The position numbers and the translations under genes were made by a program. A stretch of DNA of 58,677 nucleotides, the filler included, from Sphacelaria rigidula (taxonomy: Eukaryota): assembly GCA_964200075.2 (NCBI GenBank). It is 7 parts of 7 records of this genome, joined end to end, with 100 filler letters (N's around TTAATTAATTAA, not from the genome) between each part and the next. Parts side by side here need not be neighbours in the genome. Positions count along the whole stretch, not along the records: positions 8,399 to 16,696 come from CAXNAA020011611.1; 6 more parts are not named here. One strand, written 5' to 3'. The first letter of the stretch is position 1. Each line of letters begins with the position of its first letter. Positions 8,299-52,648 of the stretch are shown piece by piece. Below the pieces are notes generated by a model. That model was not told the origin of the DNA. It saw only the letters and a list, made by a program, of their open reading frames with translations, and ran no database searches.

Positions 8299-8398
8299 NN
8301 NNNNNNNNNNNNNNNNNNNNNNNNNNNNNNNNNNNNNNNNNNTTAATTAATTAANNNNNNNNNNNNNNNNNNNNNNNNNNNNNNNNNNNNNNNNNNNN
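8299..8398. other. Artificial contig linker (N44-TTAATTAATTAA-N44)
   Basis: 100-bp spacer with a six-frame stop core. Confidence 0.97.
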
Positions 8399-8559
8399 TG
8401 GTTGGGTGGCGCATTTTTTTTCGCGGTGGGTGTTGGGGGGGGGGCAGGGGTTTACATACAACCATTTTTTTTTTTGTTGTGATTTTTCTTTTTGTTGTCG
8501 TTCCTCCTCGTCCGTTTTCCACACTTCTCTTGTCTTCGAACCTTTCATGGACCAAGCAG

Positions 8560-8703
8560 GGTGCCGACGGTAAGCTCAAGGTGACCCTCGTGGATTCCAA
8601 GAGCGGGGAGAATGTGACCGAGGACACGTTCGACACTGTCTTGTTCGCTACGGGCAGGAGGGCCGACACGTCCAAGATTGGACTCGAGGAGGCGGGGGTA
8701 AAG
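8560..8703 (+). CDS. TRXR: High-Mr thioredoxin reductase, internal exon
   Basis: CAG|...|GTGAAG, 144 bp, phase 0; GADGKLKVTLVDSKSGENVTEDTFDTVLFATGRRADTSKIGLEEAGVK (the D-TVL-A-GR motif of disulfide reductases). Confidence 0.9.
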
Positions 8704-9599
8704 GTGAAGTCTTTTTGAATGAATACCCACGTTCGCTTTTATTGCTCTTGTTTTGAAGCATAATATGGAGAAAACGAAAACAATCGAGATTACGGCACAC
8801 ACTGGATAATGACAGTATATGGCGTTGTGAAAAAGTGTACTTTCTACAGTGTCGACTATTGCGTCCATTGCAATAGACGATAGATTCCTTCCTCTACGCA
8901 GTACACTCTTTTGATGACGTGATCCGTTGTCGAGGGTGTGATTTCACACCCTGGACAAAAGACTACGTTGTCAAAAAATGTACTGCGTGCAGTATGGGAT
9001 CTATTGCGCAATAGAAGCTTTAGTCTACAGTGTACGCAGTACACCTTTTCGCAACGTAATCTGTCGTCCAGGATGTGTGATTTACACGAGGGAGCATTCA
9101 AACTCCCAAGGTAGTGCTCGTTTCTGCCTTCCCGTACGAGAAGGTCTGGGTGTGTAGGTGGTGGCTGGTTGTTGTTGACCTGAAACAGTATTGGAGCTCC
9201 AGCAGAGCAGCCATCATCGTTTGGCAGCCCTCTCTCCTCGTTTATCAAATGAACTACTCGTATATATATATATATTGATTTTTGATTTTCGATTGATCGA
9301 TTGATTGATTGCCGCACTTTAACCGACCCCCTAGGGATCCAGCCGTGGTCACACGCAGGTATGTTGTCCAACAATATACAGTTGAGCGAATCACTCACAC
9401 CCGGAGACAAAGTAGTTCATTTCGGCCGAAAGTTGTCCGCGTTTATTTTTCCCCGAAGTCGATTTGCACAGACGAAACAAAAACAGACAAGAAACCATCA
9501 GGAACAAAAGATGAACAAATCAGAGATGGGAACAAAACACAATGCCCCACGTATCTGGCGTAGGCTATGATGAGTTGCTGTTGGTACTGTCGATGCATC

Positions 9600-10564: not shown

Positions 10565-10838
10565 TAACACATATCGCTAAACTTACTCGGCTCTATGGTG
10601 ATCTGTTCTCCAGGACGTGCGATGCATGTCCGGTGAACAGACTCAGCAAAACCACTCGCAAGTTCAACGTGTGAAAAACAAGAGGGGAGGAAAAATGCGT
10701 CCCCGCCTCCCTTCATGTTTAAGTTGTCCATGTCTTCGTGTGTTGTGTGTACGCGTTCTTCAACTTTTTGAATTTCTTTTTTTTGTCGTGTGTTGTCTTG
10801 TTCCATTTTCCGTTTTTGGGGGGGGGGGCGGCGGGCAG

Positions 10839-10982
10839 ATAAATGAAAACGGGAAGATTCCGGTACAGAGCGAACAGACGAACGTTCCGCACATCTACGC
10901 AATCGGAGACTGCACATCGGTAGATGTCGTTTTCCATGATTCACACTGGGCCAACCCAGAGCTGACGCCGGTGGCCGTTCAG
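10839..10982 (+). CDS. TRXR: High-Mr thioredoxin reductase, internal exon (FAD-binding GD motif)
   Basis: CAG|...|GTGAGC, 144 bp; INENGKIPVQSEQTNVPHIYAIGDCTSVDVVFHDSHWANPELTPVAVQ. Confidence 0.93.
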
Positions 10983-11599
10983 GTGAGCGCCCTCAAGAGT
11001 TCGACGTTGATTTTGATTGATTATTGGATAGATCGTCGCCGCCGTGGACCGTTGGGTGGCGAGAGGTGGTCGCCTGTTGGATCGTCCTCGGTTTCACTTG
11101 AAAAAATGTGCCATGATCCAGATGGACTTACCCACGCGGTCTAGGGGTCAACTGATCCCTCAGAGATCCATGTCAGACCTTTGGAGTGTCGGGAAGTAGA
11201 TAAATCGCTTTTCAAGTGTCGTAAAAGTACAGGCTGAAGTGATTTTTTGGTGAGGGATCAAGCCATTCACGTGGCGGACACCTCATGAGTACTGAGATTT
11301 ACTCAAATATCGCTTCACTCGCGTTAACGTGAGTTATGAACCGTTTTTGATTTGCTCAACGTGAACAAGGAGCACTGCAGAAAGACTGTGAAGCACTTGA
11401 TCCCTTTGGGACGAATGATGAAAATGATGACGATTTACAATTAAAGCTCCTGGGGGGGGCAAGATATGGTTGTTCTTCTGCAAGTACTGTCGTTGATGAT
11501 GCCCACCAAAACGGTACACAACTGTAAAAGTTGAGGTCTGCTAATGTGACACACTCGTGCACCGAAAGCTGGCATAAGGGAGTTTGTACTGTTTTTCGC

Positions 11600-13320: not shown

Positions 13321-14494
13321 GTATGAACCGTGGATGTCGCGAGATGGGTAGTGCATCTTTGAGATGATTGGACTAGGTACCGTCTGACCTATTTTTGAAG
13401 TACCAGCTCCGGCAGGGTATCGACAGGGTATAGGTTATTTACCTGTAATTGGCCGTAGTCAGGCGTAACGGTCGTTGGGCAAAGGTTGTCGGGGAGAAAA
13501 TCTGCAGCTGCGCGATGAGGAAGTTTTTTTGCTGTTTATACAATGGAAGTAAGGCCGGTAACCCAACGGCGAAGTAGGTGACCGTGATTATCCTTTTTTC
13601 CCCCGTGTATCTTTGAAAGACATTGGTCGGTTTGATTGCTTTTGAAGCTTGCTATGTCGGCTTCGCGTAGTTGTCTTTGGTTTCTGATTTGTAGAGCGCT
13701 CGAAGGAGGAAGGGCAAAAAGGGGAGCAAAGCACGTATTATGGTGTTGGGTTTGTTTTCTGGCAAATACTTTTGGGAAATTGAAAATGACGCCGAGAAAG
13801 CCGTGTCGTGTGCGAGCAGGTGGATGCAGTTGAGAACTCTCACTAAAAAAGCGACAGCAATTTTCCTGCTAGCTCCTCGTTCAGCCATTTTCTTAGCACG
13901 AGCTGACTGCTTCTTTTCGCTTTTTGATATTCTGTAAAAACATCGAAAATACAAGATGAGACAAAAAGAGGTCATCTTGAGATATCTCGCTTTCTTTGAG
14001 CTCGGAAATGGTTTGTCCAACCATCAAGTAGTTGAATGGTCACGAGTAGCGCAACCATCAACCAGTCAAATGGTACATGTTGGTTTGGTCATTGAACACT
14101 GAAGGCGCGAGCCACCCCCTCCCCAGTAGAGGAGGCCCCGCGGGAGGCGACGTGCCGGAAGCACGTATTAACGCTTGTTGGCTTCACTATCAAAAGAGCC
14201 GTAAAATGATATAAATTTGGGCAAATTTCCACGGGCATAACCGTAGCGCAATTGGCTTCAAATTTCGATTGAAGAGAAAATAGCCCATAATGAACTTCTA
14301 AAAAAAATATAGGACCGTCTTGTCTGGTCTTTCATATTTTGGCAAAAAAAAAGAAGTAGACTTGGAGTACGAGCCATCGATGGTGAAGGCTGGCTGCGAG
14401 CTTGAGACAGGCAACGTGGCAGGGCTTGAAATGGTACCAGTTATTACTGATCATTACAATTATAATTTTGGTGATAATGTTGATGGTTCTATGG

Positions 14495-15230
14495 GAATTT
14501 TGGATAATTATTTAAACTAACATTTACCGTTACCGCTTTTGTAAGCCCCTATTGGCTTTACGTATGCTACACACAGCACACAGCTACAGCAGACAGCACA
14601 CATGCAACAGCAATCCTGGCAGGACACGCTCCAGCGCGCACGGGGACGTAAAGGACATTCCAGAGCGTAAACCCCGCCCACCATGGAGACTATCGGCGAT
14701 GTATTGTACTCGGCTCAGAAAATCGCAGCAGCGACACTACAGATCATGCGGGTGCGAAGGAGCGTGCGCCAGCCTCACCACAGCCACCGGGGAGGACTAC
14801 CGCTCAGGAGGAGGTACATCGACTCAAGACTTGGCACAAGATGAAGCTCACGATGGGAGCCGCTAGGCTATCGCGGTCCCCCTCGTGGGCATCATCTTGT
14901 GCCAAGTCTTTAGTCGGTGTACCTCCTCCTGAGCGGTAGTCCTCCCCGGTGACTGTGGTGGGATTGGCGCAAGCTCTTTCGCACCCGCATGGTCGTGGTG
15001 TCGTTGCTGCGATTTTCTGAGCCGAGTACAATACATCGCCGATGGTCTCCATTGTGGGCGGGATTTGCGTTCCGCAATGTCCTCTACGTCCCTGTGTGCG
15101 CTGGGGCGTGTCCTGCAGCCCAGGACTGCTGCGGCATGTTGTGTACTGTCTGCTGTAGCTGTGTGCTGTATGTAGCATATACGTAGCCGGTAACGGTAAA
15201 TAATGGTTTGAAACCATTATCCAATTTTTT
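14495..15230. repeat. Long imperfect palindrome (~360-bp arms, ~9-bp spacer) in a TrxR intron
   Basis: 14520-14863 is an imperfect reverse complement of 14873-15200, e.g. GGGGAGGACTACCGCTCAGGAGGAGGTACA / TGTACCTCCTCCTGAGCGGTAGTCCTCCCC. Confidence 0.9.
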
Positions 15231-15505
15231 GATGATGACGTTTTTTAACTGATAGCATTTCCGAGCTCTACAAATCATCTTGTCCCAATGATCGAATTAA
15301 TGTGCTACAATAATCGAGTAGACTTTATTTTTGATGTATATATATATATATACGGTGTCTCCACTCATGCTCTTTGTTATGGAAGAGTTTTTTCGTTGCT
15401 GTTTATTCCGGTAAGTGCATTTTCATTTACATATTTTGAACGGGATTGTTTTTCATGGGGCGGGGGCCACGGCGCAACGTTGTGCTTCACATGCACATTT
15501 TTCAG

Positions 15506-15604
15506 GCGGCGCATCGAATGACCCACATCGACGGCGAGGAGGAGGACGACATGCCTGCCATGAACCTGAGCAAGCTTGTGTGCCTTGCCAACGACAACGA
15601 AAAG
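15506..15604 (+). CDS. TRXR: High-Mr thioredoxin reductase, internal exon
   Basis: CAG|...|GTGAAG, 99 bp; AAHRMTHIDGEEEDDMPAMNLSKLVCLANDNEK. Remaining 3' exons lie beyond the contig end. Confidence 0.88.
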
Positions 15605-15751
15605 GTGAAGCGATCTTTGGGTGGAAAAGCAAAGTCAATATTTTTTCATCGTCGAGGGAAGGACGGCCATTTGATGGGGCATGTATTTCTTTCTTGTCCG
15701 CCAGAGGAGCAAAGCCATTGTCTTTATGTGCAAATATCCCCCCCCCCCCCC

Positions 15752-15817
15752 TGCTCCGTCTCGAAAGGGATGCGTGGTCAATGGTCAAACGACTAAGGCA
15801 AGCAACAAATGAGTACG
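15752..15817 (+). mobile_element. Ultra-short LINE 3'-end fragment in a poly(C) tract
   Basis: C14-TGCTCCGTCTCGAAAGGGATGCGTGGTCAATGGTCAAACGACTAAGGCAAGCAACAAATGAGTACG-C11. Confidence 0.8.
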
Positions 15818-15832
15818 CCCCCCCCCCCACTA

Positions 15833-16240
15833 AGGGGAAGAGATATATCAGTAGTCGAGTGGAGGAGGAAGTAGATGTACAGAATTGCCCCTGTGGCGAA
15901 GCAATAGAGAGTAAAATTCACATAGTGGCATGATGCGAACTATGCCAGGAGGAACGGGACGTGCTAGAGGGGGAAATGCGGGATGTGAACGAATAAGGTG
16001 GCATGAAATCGTTTGATGCATTAGACAGTAGGGAGAAAACGATGGCTATACTAGGAGGTAGATGGTGGCCGGAGACGATGAAGCAGGACGGGGACAAGAT
16101 ATGTAGAACTTTTGTATGTAACGCATGGGAGAAACGTAATGAGCGCCGAAACGTTGGAGGTGTCTCTATTAGTAGGCGCTCCGTCTGGAAAGGGATGCGT
16201 GGTCGATGTTAAGACGACTACGACGAGCAACCAATGAGTA
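15833..16240 (+). mobile_element. 5'-truncated LINE copy (C-terminal Zn-knuckle region plus 3' end)
   Basis: Matches 46285-46510; encodes CPCGEAIESKIHIVA*C; flanked by the direct repeat CCCCCCCCACTA. Confidence 0.85.
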
Positions 16241-16263
16241 CCCCCCCCACTATAGCCCCCCAT

Positions 16264-16696
16264 AGCCTGGTCCGGCGAGAACCCGGCATGCTTCGTCCCG
16301 GTTTTGTAGGGGCAGACCCCCGATGGGGTTGGCGTCGGTTGGCGATGACACTAAAACCCGCCACTCACTGTGTAAGTTCGGCAACCAGGTAACCGTTTTT
16401 TGTTGTTGTTGTTGCGGTAACCATGATGGTGGTCGAGCTAGATCATGTTGTGCGGCGTGGGAGAACCTCTACTCCGCACAGTGTGGATGATCGTACTACG
16501 TAGTGTTTAAATGGTGAGACACCCATGAGGCAGTGTATAAACCATGACTGTCCTTGGAAGTGGCGATACCAGAAGATGAAGCAACTCATCGTAGGCTGTC
16601 ATCCAAATGCAAGACAATCAGTACTCTCCGGGCCGAACAATTTTGGCAGGATGCAGCTCACCCTTTATGCGACTCGCCAAACACACCACGGCGCTT
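16264..16696. repeat. Dispersed repeat family (also ~30170-30420 and 33591-33660, inverted)
   Basis: GGAAGTGGCGATACCAGAA...GGCAGGATGCAGCTCAC is the reverse complement of 30260-30367; AGCCTGGTCCGGCGA is shared with 30200 and 33626 in reverse. Confidence 0.65.
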
Positions 16697-39653: not shown

Positions 39654-39731
39654 CGTACTCATTGTTGCTTGCCTTAGGGGTTTGACCATTGACCACGCAT
39701 CCCTTTCGAGACGGAGCACGTAGTCATATGT
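39654..39731 (-). mobile_element. Ultra-short LINE 3'-end fragment with a C-rich TSD
   Basis: Reverse complement of the 15752 fragment; flanked on both sides by GGGGGGCGGGG. Confidence 0.8.
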
Positions 39732-41986: not shown

Positions 41987-43306
41987 GTAGGGATGCGAGG
42001 TCAATGGTCCTATGACTATGGCATGCATGATCATGAGTACACCCCCCCCTACCATAACACAGCCCGGACATGGACATGAAATAGAGAAGCTAACCCTCCG
42101 TTTTCTCAACTTACCATAACACAGCCTAAACATGAACGTGGAATAGCGAAAAATAACAGACCTACTGTTCCGTATGAAGTCGGAAAACAACTGAGATTCC
42201 CCGCCCAGTATCATAACAAATGGGACACAAAAATAAATTCAAAACCCAGACATGTAAGTCACAGCGTGAAGGTTGACCACCTTACATGCAAATCAAAAGT
42301 ACCACAAGATATGACCAGTACGGATAGGGTAGGGTCATCACCCCCCCCACGTCAAATTCACATTGAGGTTGGGGTCTCGTGGTGAGATACCCGTAAAACC
42401 TTACCGGTTTCCGTTGGGCGGTGAAAGTCTGGTCAGCCATTTCCAGAAATTCACGACATTAGGTGCCAAAAGCGCCTAGTAAAGGGAAGGAGTGGACAGT
42501 GCATGACATGAACGTCAAGACCTACTGACCTTTCTGGAGGAGAGTAACCAAACAGCGGAGGGACCGAACGATGAAACGTACGATCGTGGGACTCCGGGGT
42601 GGTTTACCATGAACATCGGCTAGCACAACGTCGGGTACTTGTGTCAAGGGTGTTGAACTTGTCTTCAGGCTACGAGTTGGCTGCGATATTTGGTGTCAGT
42701 GTGCCAGATAAAGAACTGAAAGGAACCAGACCCCCAACGGATACTAGGATTGGGATGTCCCAGTACTTTGAAGATATCCCACCAATACAATTGAAAAGAA
42801 CAAGCTGAAGATTCTCTCGAAAGAGATGACGAGAGAGAGAGACGGCAAGGAAGGGTGGATGGAGCAGTAAAGAGTGGTCGGGTAAAGTACAAGTAGTGGT
42901 GGTGATCGGAGTTCGTAGTGGCATGACGAGAATAATGTTTGAAAATAATTGGGAGGAAGTTGGATTATACTGTTTGGCAAGAGGAAAAGTAGAAAGGTAG
43001 GGAGAATACTTCCGAGTCACGCTGAAACAGCGCGAGCAAGGAGTGGGAAAGGAAAGAAATAAGTAAGGTATCGGCATGGGTTAGAAGGGTAGGGTGGAGA
43101 CTATGCATTGCTAACATAATAACAAACCTGGGACGTGGTGCACGGGCGAACGGAGGAAAAGAGAGGTAGGAACAGCGCCCCGAAACACGTAGACAAAGGC
43201 CAAACCGGCAAGGGGCAGAGCAGTCGAGCAAAGGAAAGTAGAAGTAAGAGACACGGGAAGAGGATAGGAGACAAGGAGAGATCGAGCTCATGATTCGGAA
43301 AGCAAG

Positions 43307-46300
43307 TTGAGAATAAGATCGTGGAACGTGTGTGGTTTCGCCACAGACGATCGCAAAAAAACAGAGATTATCCAACAAGTATGGAAGCGTGACCTAAATA
43401 CAGCGGGGGTGGGAATAGAATTCAAAGTTAAAGAGAACGCATACATGAAAGAAAAGCGGAAGAGACAGAAGGCCAACAACAGGGGAGCGGAGGGAGTGGG
43501 GGTTTTATTCAAGGAATACCTGTGTGACGTCATCGAAGTTATCCATGACACGGACTCGACGAGAGCATATGGATCAGGGTACCAGCAGTGCGGGGAACGA
43601 GGGACTTCTCCGTAGATAACATCTATATGCCCCCAGAATCGAAGAGTAGGGTGGACGACATTCAGGGTAGGTTTGGAGAGATAGCAGCAGATATACATCA
43701 CTACAAAAGACAAGGAGTAGTGATGATATTGGGGGATTTTATTGCAAGGGTAGGAAGAGGAGGTCAATCGGATGATATCACTGGGTGATACGGGGAAGAT
43801 AAGAACATGAACGGGGTAGAAATGCTCAAGTTCCTTGAGCATAGCGAGATGGAGACGCTGAACGTTAGAGTACTAAAGCCAGAGGCGCAATGGACACGGG
43901 CGAGGAAATACAGACAAGAGAAGAGAGAACGCTCCGTTCTTGACTATATCGTGAAGCATGGGAATAGGGAAGGAATGGAAGTACATGTATGCGCGGAGGA
44001 CGTGGGAACCACAGATCACTGCCCATTATGGACAGAAAGCCAACAGACGAGAGCTGCAAGAAATCGACGGAGTTGGAAGTTATATAAATGAAGAATCGGT
44101 AAACTAGATATGCAAGAAAAACAGCAAGAGTTCCAAGAAGATATGGCCAAAAATGCAGTGAACTCTTCCGAGCTGTTGGAAGGCTTAGGTACAGTTGATA
44201 CCGAAATGCAAAGAAATCAAACGGGCTGAAGTGAAGATTGTAGAAGGATGGGATGAGCTGGTCGAGAACACAGCGAGTGGAGTCAAAGAGAAGAAACTGA
44301 TGGTATTCAAACGAGCAGTATAATGGTGGGATGAGGAAGTCAAGGACACTGTCAGAGTAAGGAGAGAGGCTCACGCGAGATGGATGTCGAGCAATAGTAG
44401 GGTAGGATGGGATGAGTATACTATAGCTCGAAAGGAAGTTTGGGAAGGTGTAGTGAAAGAAACAAATGATGAGTTCGATGGCGGGATGAAACTAATGCGG
44501 GTAGGGATGAAAAGGATTATGGGAAACCGAGCAAGAAAGATAGACGAGGGGGTAGCCACACTACAGGCACAGAATGGTGAACTGGTCAGCAGTTCGAAGG
44601 GGAAAAGAGGAGTGCTAGTCAAGCACTACCGCAAATTAAGGACACCAAAAACTAACACAAGGTTCGACACATAATTCGAAAAAGAGATTAACGAGTGAGC
44701 AGAGGCAAATGTAGAGACGTCAAAACGGGAGGACACTGGCTCGAAAAAATTGCAGAGAGAATTTACTAGAGATGAAGTAGGGGAGTGCGTAGCTGACTCA
44801 AGAACAAGAAGGCAGCAGGGGCAGACCGAATAGTAAATTAATTTCTGAAGCATGGGGGTGAAGGAATGATTACCATGATGGTTGTGCTGTATAACTGGCA
44901 ATGGGAAAACGATTACACACCCGAGAGGTGGAGAGGAGGAGTAAAGAGAGACAAGGCTGACCCAGGGAACTAAAGAGGCATAATGCTACTGAGCACGGCA
45001 GGGAAAACATTCTGCAAGATTTTGAGCGAAAGAGTAGGAGCGATGCTAGAAAAAGAAGAGAAAATCAGCGAGGAACAAGCAGGTTTCAGACCAAATCGTA
45101 GTTGCGTAGATCACGTGTACCCACTATGTATGATTATTCGAGGTAAGAAAGACGCCGGGCTGACAACGCACTGTTCCTCCCTGGACGTGCAAAAGGCTTG
45201 TGACACAGTATGGAGAAATGGGTTGTGGAAAAAGTTGTGAGAAACTTGGATCAGAGGAAAGATACGGAGAATGAAGAAGATGACAGTATGTGCCAAAAGT
45301 GCTACGATGCTAGACGGGGAAGTATCGGAATATTTTGATATTTTACACAGAGTTTCACGAGGATGTACGTCATCACCCACTTCATTCAAGGTATTTGTTA
45401 ATGACTTGATAATAGCAACATTAGCAGCAAAGTAAGCAGTCAAGGTGGGTGAAGATATAGGATCAGGTTTGATGCTCGCAGATGATTTTGTGGGTATTTC
45501 AGAAACAGCAGACGGATTGCAAAAGTTGACAAAGCGCTAGAATACACCAGGAAATGGAGAGTGACAGCGAATAATAACAAATGCGCGGTACTCGTCTGTA
45601 ACGAAGATAAGGAAAATCTGGTAGAGTTCAAATGGAAGCGGGAAGGAGAGAGAGGGAAGTGTCGATCGTAGACCAGTATACATACCTTGGCGTAAAGATA
45701 TCAAAACACTGTTATTGGGACGCACACATGAATGAAGTAGTAGAAAACGGTAAGAAGGGTGAACGTGGTCCTCGGAGACCCGCACGTAGACACTGGGAAC
45801 AGTACAGATGGGAGCAGCTAAGAAGATACTTGGATGCTCGAAAACAACAAGTAATACAGCACTGACAGCAGAGTTGGGAATGTACTCACTTGGAACAAAC
45901 GGACACACGAGAAAATTGAGGCGGCAGCATAACGTAAAGAACATGCAGAGAAAGAGATTGCCAGCTACAGTTGATCAGGCTGTACGGAAGAAAAATACGA
46001 AAGGGCACCCTACAAGGCGGGATAAAGAAGTCGAGAAAGTATGGAAGGAGACAGAAGAAAACCAAGACGAAATACTGTCCATAGGTGAAGTCAAGGGGTA
46101 CGATACAGTAGGAGACATGATCGAAGTAAAGGAAAAGAGAGCGCTCAGACGCAAGGTAGACGAGGAAGAGCACCTGAAGGTATATGGGGGGTTGAAAGAG
46201 GGGATCAAAATGAAAGAGGAGATCAAAATGAAAATCTGATACTACGATTCCGGGTGGGGGACCTGGATCTGCCAGAAAAAAAAAAGAGATATAACAGTCG

Positions 46301-46518
46301 TCGAAAGAAGGAGGAAGTAGATGGACAGAACTGCCTCTGTGGCAAAGCAACAGAGAGCAGAGGTCGTATTGTTGCAGAATGTGAACTGTACGAGGAGGAA
46401 CGGAACGCGCTAGAGGGGGAAATGCGGGACGTGAACGAAGGTGGTATGAAGTCGTTTGATGCATTAGACAGTAGGGAGCAAACGGTGGTTATGCTAGGAG
46501 ATAAATGGTGGCTACAAA
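43307..46518 (+). mobile_element. Degenerate non-LTR retrotransposon (LINE) ORF2: APE endonuclease + reverse transcriptase + C-terminal Zn knuckle
   Basis: SWNVCG, GAEGVG, NIYMP, ILGDF, SVLDYI, TDH (APE); LLSTAGKTFCKIL, EEQAGFRPNRSCVDH, LDVQKACDTV, LADDFVG, YTYLG (RT); CLCG..ES..IVAEC. Many stops and frameshifts. Confidence 0.92.
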
Positions 46519-49212
46519 CCCAGGGTTGCCCGTTCGAGGCAGCGGACGACCTCGTCCATGCCGCTGTCTTTGCTGAAGTCATAACATGTATCCGGGGAGG
46601 TGCTGCCGTCCCTGTCCCACCCGAACGCCATGGGATCCGCACTTTCATGGTCACCAGTCTCACCTTGCCCTCCCGTTTCCCACCGCATTATGTCCGGGGG
46701 AGAACCCAGTACTGTAGCGTTGCTCGGGTCGCATCGCCCCTTGAGTTCCACGCCTTTAACCGCAGCCGTAAGAGTACAGCACTGAGCTCAATCCTTCATA
46801 TTACCCTGATTTCGGTGTGGGAGGAGGGTCAAGTGCGGTTATGCTCAGCGCTGTAAGCTGACGGGTTCGGTACAATGCGCTGGAATATTCTGTACGCGGC
46901 CGGGGGGGCATTAGGCGAACGAAAAACGCATCGGCCACCGTCACTGAAAGTGCGGAGAAAGAAGGCACTTTTCGCGGCTAGACCCTCATTTTAGTGAACG
47001 ATATTTCGTATGTAATTGGCTGTTACTGGTCGTCGCAAAGCGATAACACTGGGCAGTGTTTTGTATCAGTAGGAACTGTGGAAAAGGTGTTTTCATTCTT
47101 TCGGGGAGCCCGCTTAACAGGACTCATAATCAGTGTTGTCCCTTTTCGATAATGTGGAGGGATTAGGGCGCGAGACGTGTAACTTCGAGTAGATACTGTC
47201 ATATTCCGAAGGTTTCAATTGTCTGAGACCAAGGCTGGAGATCATCACGGAAAGAGGGGCGGGCATTTCCACCATCTAGAGCTCGCCTCACGGGCGGTCT
47301 GCGGACGAGAAAAAAGCTGCATCGCTTGCGAGTTATGTAACAACATACATTGCAAAAGCGATTTCTACTGGGAAAACGTGCCGGCTCGGTAGTGCACGAC
47401 GAAGTTCGTGAAGGGTCATGTACATGCGGGCCCCACCCCGTCTGCACTGGTCTGAACACAAGTGATGTAGTACAGTACATCATATACTGCGGGCCGCCTG
47501 CGTTAGAGACTGAGCACCACTCGCATCAGCGACGCCTGTAGCTGCGGAGATAATTCGAGTTGATGAGGCTAGAAGAATACCAGTGCAACGTCCACTCCGG
47601 TTGCCAGCCTGTTTGCACGGCCGGGTCGGTAGTGGGGGGACTTTCTGCACCGGGATGTCGCCTCCAGTACCAGGTACGCCGGCAAGGGCCCGTCGCGCAA
47701 CCCACTGGTCGCGCGACAGGAGCTTAAACCTTCGACTGTCGACCGTTTTGGAGCAGAAACGTTCACCTCCCAACCCTCATATATATAGCGGACCATAAAC
47801 GATGCTTGTTTGCTGGGTTTCTTCGAGCGTTCATCCCCAACTGGGCAAATATTGATTCGAGGCCGGCGGGATCCATTGCACAGTCAGCGTGCTCAACTGT
47901 CTCTGTACCCACTGTAATTGTCATCAGACAGCAGGGTGTTGAAAACCGTGATCGTGCACCCTATGGTCATCCACCGTATGAATGCAGACCGGGCCATCAG
48001 CGACTTCCCCTGCTGTAGCTGTGACGGTGACACCTTCCTTTAATACCAATCTACACATCCTCCAAGTTTTGGCGTAATCTGACACGGGGTGCGGATGCTC
48101 TTCACGCCTAAGCTGCCAAAACACCGCCTCCATATTATCGAAAATGGAACGCATGATACAATGAGCAGGCCCGTGAAGAGCGACAAGAACCACCGGCCGC
48201 TAATTTGTCCTGATACAGGACGCCATGCGTGGAACAACGATGATGTCCTCAAATTCTGACAACATGTGCATAACTCACGGACGACAAGGCGATGCAGAAA
48301 TTGTGCAGGGCACCATACGCATGTCTCACCTTTGTCCCCACGGCGTGTACCCCCTCTTTGTCGGAGTCACGGCCTATCCTGCAACGTTCCCCCGGCGTCG
48401 TGTTCATGGTAGCACACCTGCCAATCAGGACGGCAGTGAGCGATGAACTGTCGGACCCGCGGTTATGTCATGGATTACTAGTGTCACACACACAAATCCG
48501 CGGCAAATGCGCCCCTACTTGCAATCCCGATGTACACGCTGACGCCGTCTTCCACCCCAGGAGGCGGCACGATGATTACGTACAACAATGTTTTCGTGAG
48601 AATGGCAGTAGAGCGTTGTTGAGTGAGAGCAGGTTATGCAGGTTATATTATTCGGTCTAGCTTGACCAATTTTTTATCATGTGTGTGCTTTTGTTCCCTC
48701 GTATCACTGGCGTGAGCTTACAGCTAACGCCTGTACCGTACTCGGGGATATCAAGGACTTCACTGGCAAGCTACAATGGAGAGCGTGTCGGGCCTCGTGG
48801 AGGGGTATCTCTGAACTGAAATGATTCATTCATGAATTGACCGCTGCTCACTCTTGAACGTATGCTCCACTCTCGATCTCACACATTGTCATACCATATG
48901 TTGCAGCTAAGTACAGGGAAGTAGATAACAGTGCAGTAGAGAACGGGACAGGACAGTACAGCACAATACAGTGTAGTACAGAAGAGTACAGTACAAAGCA
49001 GTACATTACCGAATGCAGTATACTGTAGTGCAGTACAACAGTGCCCAGCAACACATGACTGCATCGGAACTCAATCATGCCGCAGTTTACTACAGCGTTG
49101 TTCACAGTTCAATTTCGCCGACTCTACCACCAAACTTGCATGCAAACATTTGCTGTGCTAATTCTCACGCAGGCACCATTTGACATGATCATTTTTCAGA
49201 TGGACTGTGTAC

Positions 49213-50390: not shown

Positions 50391-50461
50391 CGTACTCATT
50401 TGTTGCTTGCCTTAGTCGTTTGACCATTGACGACGCATCCCTTTCGAGACGGAGCAGGTTC
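50391..50461 (-). mobile_element. Ultra-short LINE 3'-end fragment between G runs
   Basis: G8-CGTACTCATTTGTTGCTTGCC...CGAGACGGAGCAGGTTC-G9. Confidence 0.8.
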
Positions 50462-50592
50462 GGGGGGGGGCTATCTCGGCAGCAGTCGAAAAGAAAGCTC
50501 ATTAAAACGACAGTGGAAAGGATCCAAATACACAGAAGAAAAGGGGAAGCAATCACAATCAATCGAAGAATAATACAGGAATGCAGAGGCAG

Positions 50593-52648
50593 CTACGTAC
50601 GGCTACGGCGCTTGCCAAAAGTGACACCGGCACACAAAGAACACGTCCGCCGGAAGTCGTCGGTAGAAGCGGACGGGCCGCAAGTTGGGTGGAGTAAGCC
50701 GTCGCAGGAGCCGGCACACGGTATCATGCCCATACAGCCACCTGTAACACAGCCAGGTTCGGAGCAAGAAGAATGAACCCAAATCGGGAGGTCTTCGGTG
50801 CCGTCGCCCGGTGCTCCAGGACCGTTGCGGAAAGTAGGATATAGAGCGGAAGGGCGACAGGCCGGCTGAACACCGTCGTCCGAAAATCTGTCCGGGCCAA
50901 CGGAGAAGTTAGGCACGCCTGGCATCGGCGACCTCCGTGCGGCGTCCAGCGTGGACCTTAGCCTGGTCGCACGTGAGCTCGATCCATTCCGCGTCTTTAT
51001 GGTCCCAAAGAGCGAAACTCTCGCTGACGCGTCCACCGGAACCACCGGAGAAAAAGAGGGTGTACGCATGTCCTCGTCGGAAAAGGGAGGGGTACACGAG
51101 AGCGACGAAGTAAGCTTCGGCCCTCAACGCTTCCACAGGATGGACGCTCGTGGGACAAATCCAGGAGGAGCTGGGGAGATACTCCCCATCTTGGATCATC
51201 CACGTGAGGATGGCCACAGCGGAAGGCGTGAGTGGACGCAGGAATTCCTCCCGAAAGCATCGGACGCAAGACCAGAAACTCTTCTTGCCGAGTTCGAGGC
51301 GCACCTCCTTCACTACCTGACGCTGCAGCTTCCGGTATTCGGCGAGAGCGACGTTAAACTCCGGGCGTGACACGTTCTTACTCGCGGTCCGGAAGTGGCC
51401 TCTCCCGACATCCTTGGAGCAGTAGCCGACCATAGCTGGAGGGATATATAAGGCGCACAAGGAGAAAGGAGCGACGGAAAGGAAAGAGCGATGTGAGGTA
51501 ATGGACGGGAAAGAAGATAGGAGAAAGGAAAGGGTCGGCAGTGAAGGCGTACGGTAAGATGGGGAATGCAGGAGGGAGAGGTGAGGGTCGGAAGAAAGGG
51601 AGGAAGAATTCCAAGAAATATTTGCAAGTAAGAAACGAGAGTAGGAAATAATGCGTGAGCGATATTCAAAGAAGGAAATCGAATTGGGAGGGTACGAAGA
51701 GAAAAAAAACTTGCCTTCAAACGACTGCTTAGCACCGAGAGGCTTGACGTCAATCTTAAGTCGTAGATCAGGTCCCCAACTCTCGAACGTCTTCAAGTTG
51801 TTACGTCCGTCCGTGTTCATCTTCTTGTCATCGTCGTAGGCCTTCACGATTCCCAACGTAAGAACCCCCTGGACGTGTAGGTTCCCCTTTTGCCCCCCCC
51901 GCTCGAGGCTAACTAACCCGCGCGTCGCCTTCTTCTCCAAGAAGTGCGCCGCGTCATCGAAAACGTTGGCGGGTATGTTCCCCGCGTCGCGGGATGCTAT
52001 CGTCAGAGAGAAGTCCACAGGATTCCCTGTTCCGGAATTGATGATGTTGTCGATGACGTCACCGGTGCGGGGGCAGAGGCGGACCAGAGATGGCTGACGC
52101 CGCGGACGACCGCGAGGCCGCGGCCAGGGGATAGTAGGGTCGGCGGCGGAGCGAGGGCAGGTACCGCTGACGTCGCCGGCGGCGCGGGGTTCGGCCGTGG
52201 AAGCATCGGAAGCCCCGGCGTCGGAGGCGGCGGGGCGATGGGAGGCGCCGGCAGGGCGGCCGGAACTGGCGGCGCTGGCAGCGGTGGATGAAACGGACAT
52301 GGCGCCGTCAGAACCGGACGGGATAGCTGAGTTGGTACGACTGGAGAGGGCGGTGCGACTGGAGGTGACGCCGTCGGAGCCGGAGGGGATAGCTGAGTTG
52401 GTACGAATGGAGGGGGCGGAGCGACTGGAGGCGACGCCGTCGGAATCGGCGGCGATGCGGGGGCGTCCGCGGCGTCACGGTTGACTGGCGAGTGGAGAGG
52501 ATGGTGCGGTGGCGCCAGATGTCCGGATGGGATCCTCTGCAGTAGGGACGCGGGGACAACGACCACGCGACCGCCTCGTGCGCGTAGGCCCATCGGGCGC
52601 AAGTGAAGGCGCAGGCCGGTCGTCAGTCGTACCTGTAGAACCCACCAT
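50593..52648 (-). mobile_element. Replitron-like rolling-circle transposon gene: Rep-type HUH endonuclease with AT-hooks and C-terminal PHD-like finger (probably disrupted)
   Basis: RCR motifs DFSLTI, ERGG.KGNLHVQG and, after removing intron 51436-51714, SFEAMVGYCSKD; no helicase. In-frame TGA at 52475-52477 and an apparent frameshift near 50958. Confidence 0.82.

What the first reader, a model, noticed from the sequence alone, without database searches (positions are those of the whole stretch)
15738..16252. A LINE that appears to target poly(C) tracts and stacks into its own target sites
Seen: every copy of the LINE 3' end (...CAAATGAGTACG) ends at a C run with no poly(A): 15752-15817, 15833-16240, 33408-33470, 39654-39731(-), 50391-50461(-) and a diverged one at 41987-42040. 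Wherever the 5' junction is visible it also lies at or near a C run. Two copies show TSDs that include non-C bases (CCCCCCCCACTA; GGGGGGCGGGG), so the C run is the target and not merely a tail. The 66-bp copy sits inside the left TSD of the 408-bp copy. Established: some APE-type LINEs are specific for microsatellites or telomeric repeats. Inference: a poly(C)/poly(G)-specific LINE that duplicates and lengthens C tracts, which may explain the many C/G homopolymers here. I know of no described equivalent.
Basis: partly seen in the sequence, partly recalled or inferred. Interest (0 to 1): 0.72.

Follow-up and report, generated by a model that had tools for sequence, protein, structure and literature searches.

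The report
Brown-algal LINE inserting at C runs
A jumping gene of brown algae really does insert at runs of C and leaves thousands of tiny tail fragments there, but an apparently matching family with C-rich ends is already listed in a 2025 Ectocarpus transposon catalogue, so only the fixed 66-base length of most fragments remains unexplained.

Summary
Observation confirmed. The copies are 3' fragments of a single-ORF APE+RT LINE (about 5.85 kb). Genome-wide, 1,700 of 2,099 forward-strand ends have CCCC within 3 nt; 71 of 110 visible 5' junctions have C5 nearby, against 1.4% background. TSDs are 8-20 bp, and paralogous empty sites already hold the C run. The run is also a tail: extra Cs are often added.

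Not undescribed: Dinatale et al. 2025 (PMC12477816, supplement) list RTEX-1/-2/-N1_Ec32 with (C)n ends and C-rich TSDs. Their sequences were unreadable, so membership rests on matching features.

Corrections: the 'diverged' copy is the non-autonomous partner; the locus is a triple stack; stacking looks passive; the family abuts only 8 of 29 C/G runs here.

Best mechanism (inferred): L1/Zorro3-type priming with A/T swapped for C/G. Unexplained: 44 of 77 copies are 57-74 nt, stopping at the edge of a probably folded, protein-coding 3' module.

The parts
15738..15751 (+). C14 run, left flank (pure-C duplication side) of the 66-bp copy
   Evidence: contigs of two other samples run up to this run and stop at 15740-15743
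15752..15817 (+). 66-bp 5'-truncated LINE copy = the terminal module; codes the last residues of the ORF, stop TGA at 15810-15812, 3' UTR only GTACG
   Evidence: predicted three-way junction closed by its own two ends
15818..15832 (+). C11 + ACTA; 15821-15832 is the left TSD of the 408-bp copy
15833..16240 (+). 408-bp 5'-truncated, more diverged LINE copy (CCHC knuckle region to stop); about 86% identical to the 66-mer over the shared end
16241..16252 (+). right TSD of the 408-bp copy, CCCCCCCCACTA
16256..16263 (+). C6 + AT, probable left target duplication of the third stacked element
   Evidence: role inferred from C-rich left flanks of like copies
16264..16696 (+). 5' part of a roughly 575-bp non-autonomous partner (RTEX-N1-like), cut by the assembly gap
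   Evidence: aligns with full copy L127 and with L126, L142; 466 exact hits of its first 20 nt
30122..30185 (-). 3' end of another partner copy, followed by C6
33407..33470 (+). 64-bp LINE copy between C8 (33400-33407) and A + C19 (33472-33490), then a gap
39654..39731 (-). LINE terminal module (39654-39719) with 12 extra 5' bases; TSD CCCCGCCCCCC, three extra Cs on the 3' side
41987..42049 (+). 3' end of a partner copy (to 42041) and its C8 run; 5' part hidden by a gap
42050..46519 (+). long decayed LINE copy: part of the 5' UTR, then APE, RT and CCHC coding region (ORF from about 42845, many stops and shifts); starts right after the C8 run; 3' end missing
50391..50470 (-). 66-bp LINE copy (50391-50456) inserted at the C run of another repeat; left flank C9 + GAACC (50457-50470), right flank C8 then a gap
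   Evidence: empty form of a like repeat

Best explanation
These are 3' fragments of a brown-algal RTE-X-type LINE, most likely the RTEX-1/-2_Ec32 family or its counterpart, together with its non-autonomous partner. Shown: one ORF (about 1,330-1,360 aa) with APE endonuclease, RT and a CCHC knuckle runs to 5 nt from the 3' end; insertions fall at pre-existing C-rich tracts; the TSD (8-20 bp, median 14) starts with the C run and ends a few non-C bases later; extra Cs are often added on the 3' side. Inferred: the endonuclease nicks the G-rich strand in or at the end of a G run; the freed G flap pairs with the C run that follows the element in its read-through RNA and primes reverse transcription; a second nick about 14 bp away makes the TSD. 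This is L1/Zorro3 priming with A/T swapped for C/G. The protein probably grips a folded terminal module of about 66 nt that the partner shares. Each insertion turns one C run into two, which are targets again, so same-strand stacks form passively.
For: Domains: Pfam RVT_1 and Exo_endo_phos on P0002 and P0006; profile hits to L1 ORF2p and L1 endonuclease structures. The 66-mer is the ORF end: P0002, P0006, P0001 C-termini and intact loci L202, L204 reading stop, GTACG, C9-10. Full length: L184 spans about 5.85 kb; 5 of 20 fetched long copies reach the shared 5' end and all 5 start at a C-rich tract; 7 of 8 collinear 3' ends are C-rich. Junction statistics. Empty sites: one repeat has 228 empty matches, mostly C4-5 by eye in the 100 listed, while filled L157 and L181 keep C5 on the left and show C6 and C10 on the right; a second has 234 empty matches with a C-rich tract, filled in L091 and L049. 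Stacking share (11 of 59) is close to the share of C runs that the family abuts (21 of 150 runs of 6 or more; 11 of 54 runs of 8 or more). L014 shows one TSD three times around a LINE and a partner copy. Published match: single EN-RT ORF, (C)n 3' end, C-rich TSD, 5,867, 5,511 and 5,582 bp; partner 604-607 bp sharing a 60-bp 3' end at 83%. Precedent for flap-tail pairing: L1 (PMC12809410) and Zorro3 (PMC1965478).
Against: No RNA, nicking or priming data were obtained; the nick position and the C-tailed RNA are inferred from DNA scars. About 19% of ends lack C4 within 3 nt, 39 of 110 LINE and 17 of 32 partner 5' junctions lack C5, and a TSD with 5 or more non-C letters was called in only 29 of 142. 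Among those 29 the right run is longer in 13, equal in 5, shorter in 11. No orthologous empty allele of the window locus was seen in four runs. The fold of the module is only modestly supported: z-scores of -1.0, -1.5, -1.0 and -1.1 for four LINE and partner ends, +0.06 and +0.9 for two other stretches, and L214 and L203 fold differently. The model does not explain the 66-nt peak. The published consensus sequences could not be read, so identity with the named families is untested at sequence level.
Confidence: 0.75

Rival explanations
1. Specificity lies in the endonuclease, which nicks G/C tracts by itself; the C tail is a by-product of slippage on the target.
For: All C-ended families form one clade (SH-aLRT 100, quick tree), while relatives at 47-48% identity end in ATTT/TA-rich tails and a more distant one in (TC)n, so protein and target may have changed together. 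Sequence-specific APE endonucleases of telomeric LINEs are recalled precedent, not tested here.
Against: Targets as short as C3-5 are used and Cs are added (L046, L048, L181). For L1 the endonuclease is reported to be only modestly specific, with priming adding the bias (PMC12809410).
Confidence: 0.3
2. The C run is only a tail; left-hand C runs are copied from the donor's flank or arise by chance.
For: 19 of 110 copies have under 4 Cs on the left but 6 or more on the right.
Against: TSDs that include non-C letters (29 of 142 vs 0.45 expected) and empty paralogous sites that already carry the run.
Confidence: 0.04
3. For the 66-nt peak: the templates are decay fragments. The LINE RNA is trimmed from the 5' side down to the folded, protein-bound terminal module, which is then retrotransposed.
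For: Only 627 of 2,933 exact module starts extend 7 nt further upstream; 34 of 77 copies are 63-68 nt, mode 66. The edge coincides with the 5' strand of the closing stem. Inner stem: 93% of cells paired, 0 of 500 shuffles as high.
Against: The partner carries the same module, yet 0 of 37 copies with a visible junction stop at its edge; they spread over 28-53, 93-108 and longer. The two double-sided changes come from two related sequences, in effect one event. No RNA data.
Confidence: 0.3
4. For the 66-nt peak: short copies are their own lineage, a minimal non-autonomous element re-copied from earlier 66-mers inside host transcripts.
For: Short copies are younger (median 2 vs 4 mismatches in 57 nt) and richer in one loop variant (15 of 55 vs 5 of 61) than longer ones; the long set was partly selected and includes old copies.
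Against: 5' ends are ragged (57-74), both loop variants occur in both classes, and in TSD-resolved short copies the target resumes within about 4 nt of the module, so no donor flank is carried along.
Confidence: 0.25
5. For the 66-nt peak: reverse transcription stalls or is joined early there, because the enzyme loses its RNA grip after copying the module or because the C-rich target finds microhomology in the first pyrimidine patch.
For: Smaller clusters near 87-90 and 114-122 nt also lie at pyrimidine patches; several junctions share 1-4 nt with the TSD.
Against: Only 4 of 41 copies of 63-68 nt have CCC directly at the junction, and the partner lacks the peak.
Confidence: 0.35
6. Stacks form because the element recognises its own sequence.
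For: 11 of 59 copies have a family neighbour, all on the same strand.
Against: That share equals the share of C runs the family abuts (14-20%), and same-strand order follows from the C run's polarity.
Confidence: 0.1

Closest known systems
RTEX-1_Ec32 and RTEX-2_Ec32 (RTE-X LINEs of Ectocarpus; Dinatale et al. 2025, PMC12477816, supplementary file 1)
   Same: Single EN-RT ORF, (C)n 3' end or termini, C-rich TSD, 5.5-5.9 kb, thousands of mostly short copies; homologous proteins here are named from Ectocarpus records.
   Different: No difference established; consensi unreadable. The main text has no hit for 'C-rich' or 'homopolymer' and two unrelated hits for TSD, so target statistics, empty sites, the ORF ending 5 nt from the terminus and the 66-nt peak were not seen described.
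RTEX-N1_Ec32 (non-autonomous partner; probably the earlier 'Sower' repeat, my inference from 2.48 Mb vs about 2.5 Mb)
   Same: About 600 bp, shares about 60 bp of 3' end with the LINE, 5' head weakly like an autonomous 5' end, C-rich TSD, can be tandem; all seen in L127, L115 and the window.
   Different: The full copy here is about 575 bp, and its head is repeated just before the 3' module, which the table does not mention.
Zorro3 of Candida albicans (PMC1965478)
   Same: Always inserts at a homopolymer that matches its own tail; the authors propose the same flap-tail priming.
   Different: L1-like with two ORFs, poly-A rather than C, and no large target duplications reported.
Human L1
   Same: TSD begins with the homopolymer that matches the RNA tail; APE + RT; frequent 5' truncation (for the 5'-TTTTT/AA consensus and the priming question).
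   Different: A/T target, tail made by polyadenylation, relaxed RNA recognition; here the shared 3' module points to stringent recognition (PMC3747384).
Green-algal RTEX families and other repeat-tailed LINEs (Ohshima 2013, PMC3747384, Table 3)
   Same: 3' ends are simple repeats rather than poly(A): (CA)n, (CAA)n, (CCAT)n and others; unnamed relatives here end in ATTT/TA-rich or (TC)n tails.
   Different: None of those listed is a C homopolymer.

Membership tests
APE-type non-LTR retrotransposon | APE endonuclease upstream of RT | tested here: met
   Pfam PF03372/PF14529 and PF00078 on P0002, P0006; profile matches L1 EN and ORF2p structures
APE-type non-LTR retrotransposon | fixed 3' end, variable 5' truncation, variable-length TSD, no LTR or TIR | tested here: met
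   TSD 8-20 bp in 29 of 142 ends
RTEX-1/-2_Ec32 | single EN-RT ORF | tested here: met
   1,360 and 1,328 aa ORFs; collinear on genomic copies
RTEX-1/-2_Ec32 | (C)n 3' end and C-rich TSD | tested here: met
RTEX-1/-2_Ec32 | length 5.5-5.9 kb | tested here: met
   L184 about 5.85 kb against 5,867 bp for RTEX-1a
RTEX-1/-2_Ec32 | sequence identity to the published consensus; which of -1a, -1b, -2 | not testable with these tools
   the FASTA supplements cannot be read
RTE-X clade | RT groups with named RTEX references (RTEX-4_NV, RTEX-1_BF) | tested here: inconclusive
   no named references were available; the quick tree (42 rows, careful search unfinished, L215, L207, L217 dropped as too short) puts the family in a 34-row group (97) apart from five proteins that include the DUF6451 bearers I take as RTE-type from recall
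RTEX-N1_Ec32 | about 600 bp, non-coding, about 60-bp 3' end shared with the LINE, C-rich TSD, tandem copies | tested here: met
   coding capacity was not separately tested
L1 clade / Zorro3 | two ORFs and poly(A) tail | tested here: not met
   one ORF; 0 of 73 ends followed by A4
strictly sequence-specific LINEs (R1, TRAS, Tx1 types; recalled) | one fixed target position in a defined repeat | tested here: not met
   targets are dispersed C-rich tracts of 3-17 nt, often interrupted
known structured RNA or ribozyme | Rfam match at gathering score | tested here: not met
   8 matches at E up to 10 in L127, L081, L123, none at gathering

The most novel reading that the evidence does not exclude
This LINE primes on G flaps with a C-tailed, non-polyadenylated RNA, and the last 66 coding nucleotides fold into a three-way junction that is both the protein's binding site and a decay-resistant fragment. 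Host trimming of the RNA would then feed a stream of 66-nt templates into retrotransposition, making the commonest insertion a processed RNA rather than a failed full-length copy. The same coding module persists in distant relatives with other repeat tails, so target choice in this clade would be reprogrammed simply by the tail.
Probability: 0.25. Interest if true: 0.62.

Novelty: already known. Interest (0 to 1): 0.3.

Why it matters
The family and its C-rich ends are already catalogued, so the discovery value is low. The analysis still offers a natural test of an open question for L1: whether target bias comes from the endonuclease or from flap-tail pairing (PMC12809410). Here relatives use C, ATTT/TA or TC tails with a homologous protein. 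The 66-nt peak matters for annotation, because thousands of insertions are too short for usual repeat thresholds, and it may mark an RNA processing step or an RT stop that has not been described.

Tried and rejected
DNA search of the genome with the 66-mer returned nothing because common words are skipped; patterns were used instead. The unique left flank has one genomic match, so the window locus has no paralogous empty site. Contigs of four public runs laid on 13800-16690 gave no bridging empty allele; repeat contigs swamped the element and flank contigs stop at the C run. Telomere-like fill-ins at 5' junctions looked interesting in L006 and L008, but the pattern has 1 match genome-wide: rejected. 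A donor-specific interrupted tail (CCTCCC) appears in only 3 of 95 ends: not supported. Rfam found no ribozyme or other family, and by eye the module does not fit an HDV-like layout (recalled topology). A single-sequence search of the endonuclease against solved structures gave no significant hit; the profile did. The idea that the family explains most C/G homopolymers failed (only ends recognisable by BLAST were counted, so old scars are missed). The Blepharisma paper's C-rich motif belongs to a DNA transposon TIR and is unrelated. No structure or complex prediction was run.

Full report
Observation. The 408-bp copy has the TSD CCCCCCCCACTA at 15821-15832 and 16241-16252, and the 66-bp copy lies between C14 and C11 just left of it. 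The window is a gapped scaffold, so three of the six copies show only one junction fully. An exact 20-mer of the end has 2,099 forward and 2,051 reverse matches in the 244-Mb genome, control 0; 1,700 of the 2,099 forward ones have CCCC within 3 nt.

What the element is. A decayed copy at 42050-46519 carries APE, RT and CCHC motifs. Its RT found intact single-ORF proteins P0002 (1,360 aa) and P0006 (1,328 aa) with Pfam endonuclease and RT domains; named homologues come from Ectocarpus records. The 66-mer is coding: it translates to the C-terminus of these proteins, and intact metagenome loci L202 and L204 read stop, GTACG, then C9-10. Of 20 long genomic copies fetched, 5 reach a shared 5' end about 1.5-2.0 kb before the ORF, all at a C-rich tract, and L184 spans about 5.85 kb; 7 of 8 collinear 3' ends are C-rich, L192 is not. 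A second element of about 575 bp (full copy L127) shares the terminal module. It accounts for the 'diverged' end at 41987-42041, an end at 30122(-) and the sequence at 16264-16696, so the reported locus is a triple stack.

Target or tail. I dropped ends at contig edges, with N, or longer than the reference; 57 of 74 remained in the first set and 142 in the larger one. C5 lies within 20 nt of the 5' junction in 38 of 57 (background 1.4%; G5 in 0), and in 71 of 110 LINE and 15 of 32 partner ends. TSDs sharing 5 or more letters beyond the C run occur in 29 of 142, against 0.45 in shuffled pairs (max 3); they are 8-20 bp, median 14, and begin with the run. The larger set includes loci chosen for longer copies or for the partner. 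Two host repeats give empty sites. One has 228 empty matches, mostly C4-5 by eye among the 100 listed; filled copies L157 and L181 keep C5 on the left and have C6 and C10 on the right. The other has 234 empty matches with a C-rich tract and is filled in L091 and L049. So the run pre-exists and Cs can be added: right runs exceed left runs overall (median 7 vs 6, p=0.002, n=110), although among TSD-resolved copies the split is 13 longer, 5 equal, 11 shorter. No orthologous empty allele of the window locus was seen in four runs.

Stacking and homopolymers. 11 of 59 copies have a same-strand family neighbour within 45 nt and 0 of 61 an opposite-strand one. The family abuts 21 of 150 C/G runs of 6 or more and 11 of 54 runs of 8 or more in 197 kb of unselected DNA, and 8 of 29 in the window. 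Stacking is therefore what C-run targeting predicts, and the family does not account for most homopolymers; A/T runs are commoner (91 vs 54).

The 66-nt peak. Of 77 copies not selected for length, 44 are 57-74 nt and 34 are 63-68 nt. Genome-wide, 627 of 2,933 exact module starts continue 7 nt upstream; divergence lowers that figure somewhat but not to this degree. The edge coincides with the start of LINE-partner homology and with a predicted stem that pairs the module's first and last bases. LINE and partner consensi fold into the same three-way junction with different loops. The inner stem is 93% paired in 13 sequences, 0 of 500 shuffles as high, but its double-sided changes come from two related distant elements. 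Folding z-scores are weak and two sequences fold otherwise. Against a purely structural cause, 0 of 37 partner copies stop at that edge. Short copies are younger than long ones. I rank an RT stop or early joining (0.35), a protected decay fragment (0.3) and a self-copying mini-element (0.25); none is shown.

Mechanism. Shown: domains, fixed 3' end, target preference, TSD geometry, added Cs. Inferred: a nick on the G strand, pairing of the G flap with a C run in a read-through RNA, a second nick about 14 bp away, and recognition of the module by the protein. The L1 paper states that the 5'-TTTTT/AA bias may come from nicking or from priming and finds the endonuclease only modestly specific (PMC12809410, passages). 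The Zorro3 paper proposes the same flap pairing at poly-A targets (PMC1965478, passages). Relatives at 47-48% identity keep a homologous module but end in ATTT/TA-rich tails, a more distant one ends in (TC)n, and a divergent algal family (L214) ends in C10. The C-ended proteins form one clade in a quick, midpoint-rooted tree.

What is known. Dinatale et al. 2025 (PMC12477816; abstract, outline, passages, part 1 of 3 of supplementary file 1, and a search of file 2 seen) list RTEX-1a/b_Ec32 ('single EN-RT ORF; (C)n 3'', TSD 'C-rich', 5,867 and 5,511 bp), RTEX-2_Ec32 ('(C)n termini/TSD') and RTEX-N1/-N2 (C-rich TSD, 60-bp shared end). Every feature I could test matches. The consensus FASTA files could not be read, which leaves sequence identity open. 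The main text has no 'C-rich' or 'homopolymer' hit. RTEX elements of green algae end in other simple repeats (PMC3747384, passages and Table 3), and RTEX is placed in the RTE superfamily (PMC11203168, passages). The 2011 review (PMC3145265, section 6) mentions the abundant repeat Sower without target details. Searches for another C-run-targeting LINE (listings seen, a few papers read in passages) showed none besides the Ectocarpus catalogue. The library lacks most subscription journals and Repbase reports, so absence is weak.

Verdict. Real and strongly non-random, correctly read as a target preference, but already catalogued. Interest 0.3. The open part is the 66-nt peak and the endonuclease-versus-priming question.

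Noticed in passing
window 50909-52474 (-): A 520-aa open frame with Replitron HUH endonuclease (PF21859, E 3e-21) and a weak Replitron C-terminal match: a replitron transposon.
   Followed up: partly
window 14801-14934 (L081:852-985): A long near-perfect inverted repeat that scores weakly against miRNA precursor models, below gathering; a MITE-like or miRNA-like hairpin.
   Followed up: no
window 10602-11144 (+) and 8347-8718 (+): Exons of a pyridine nucleotide-disulphide oxidoreductase (PF07992), thioredoxin-reductase-like by recall; the 8347 frame was not scanned.
   Followed up: partly
window 27100-27954 and 29676-30218 (-): Exons of a WD40 protein with WDR3-type propeller matches below cut-off; a partner element end at 30122 lies beside one exon.
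   Followed up: partly
L250 and L260 (G000:C16:3686-3961): Two host-repeat motifs that serve as insertion sites (228 and 234 empty matches) lie 240 bp apart on opposite strands here and may be the two ends of one unclassified element.
   Followed up: no
L127; window 16264-16330: The partner's first 45 or so bases recur just before its 3' module, and several copies start at that inner repeat (93-108 nt long); its head also resembles the LINE's extreme 5' end.
   Followed up: partly
L006:1445-1460: One insertion has telomere-like repeats added in register after its TSD at the 5' junction; a single case genome-wide.
   Followed up: yes
P0027-P0047, L203, L206: Unnamed relatives at about 45% identity keep a VVNG-type C-terminal motif and a homologous terminal hairpin, but not the C tail.
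   Followed up: partly
window gaps, e.g. 8299-8398: Assembly gaps carry an artificial TTAATTAATTAA spacer, and several gaps begin at element ends or C runs.
   Followed up: no
window 26927-27020: A C54 run with further C-rich tracts and no recognised element end nearby.
   Followed up: no
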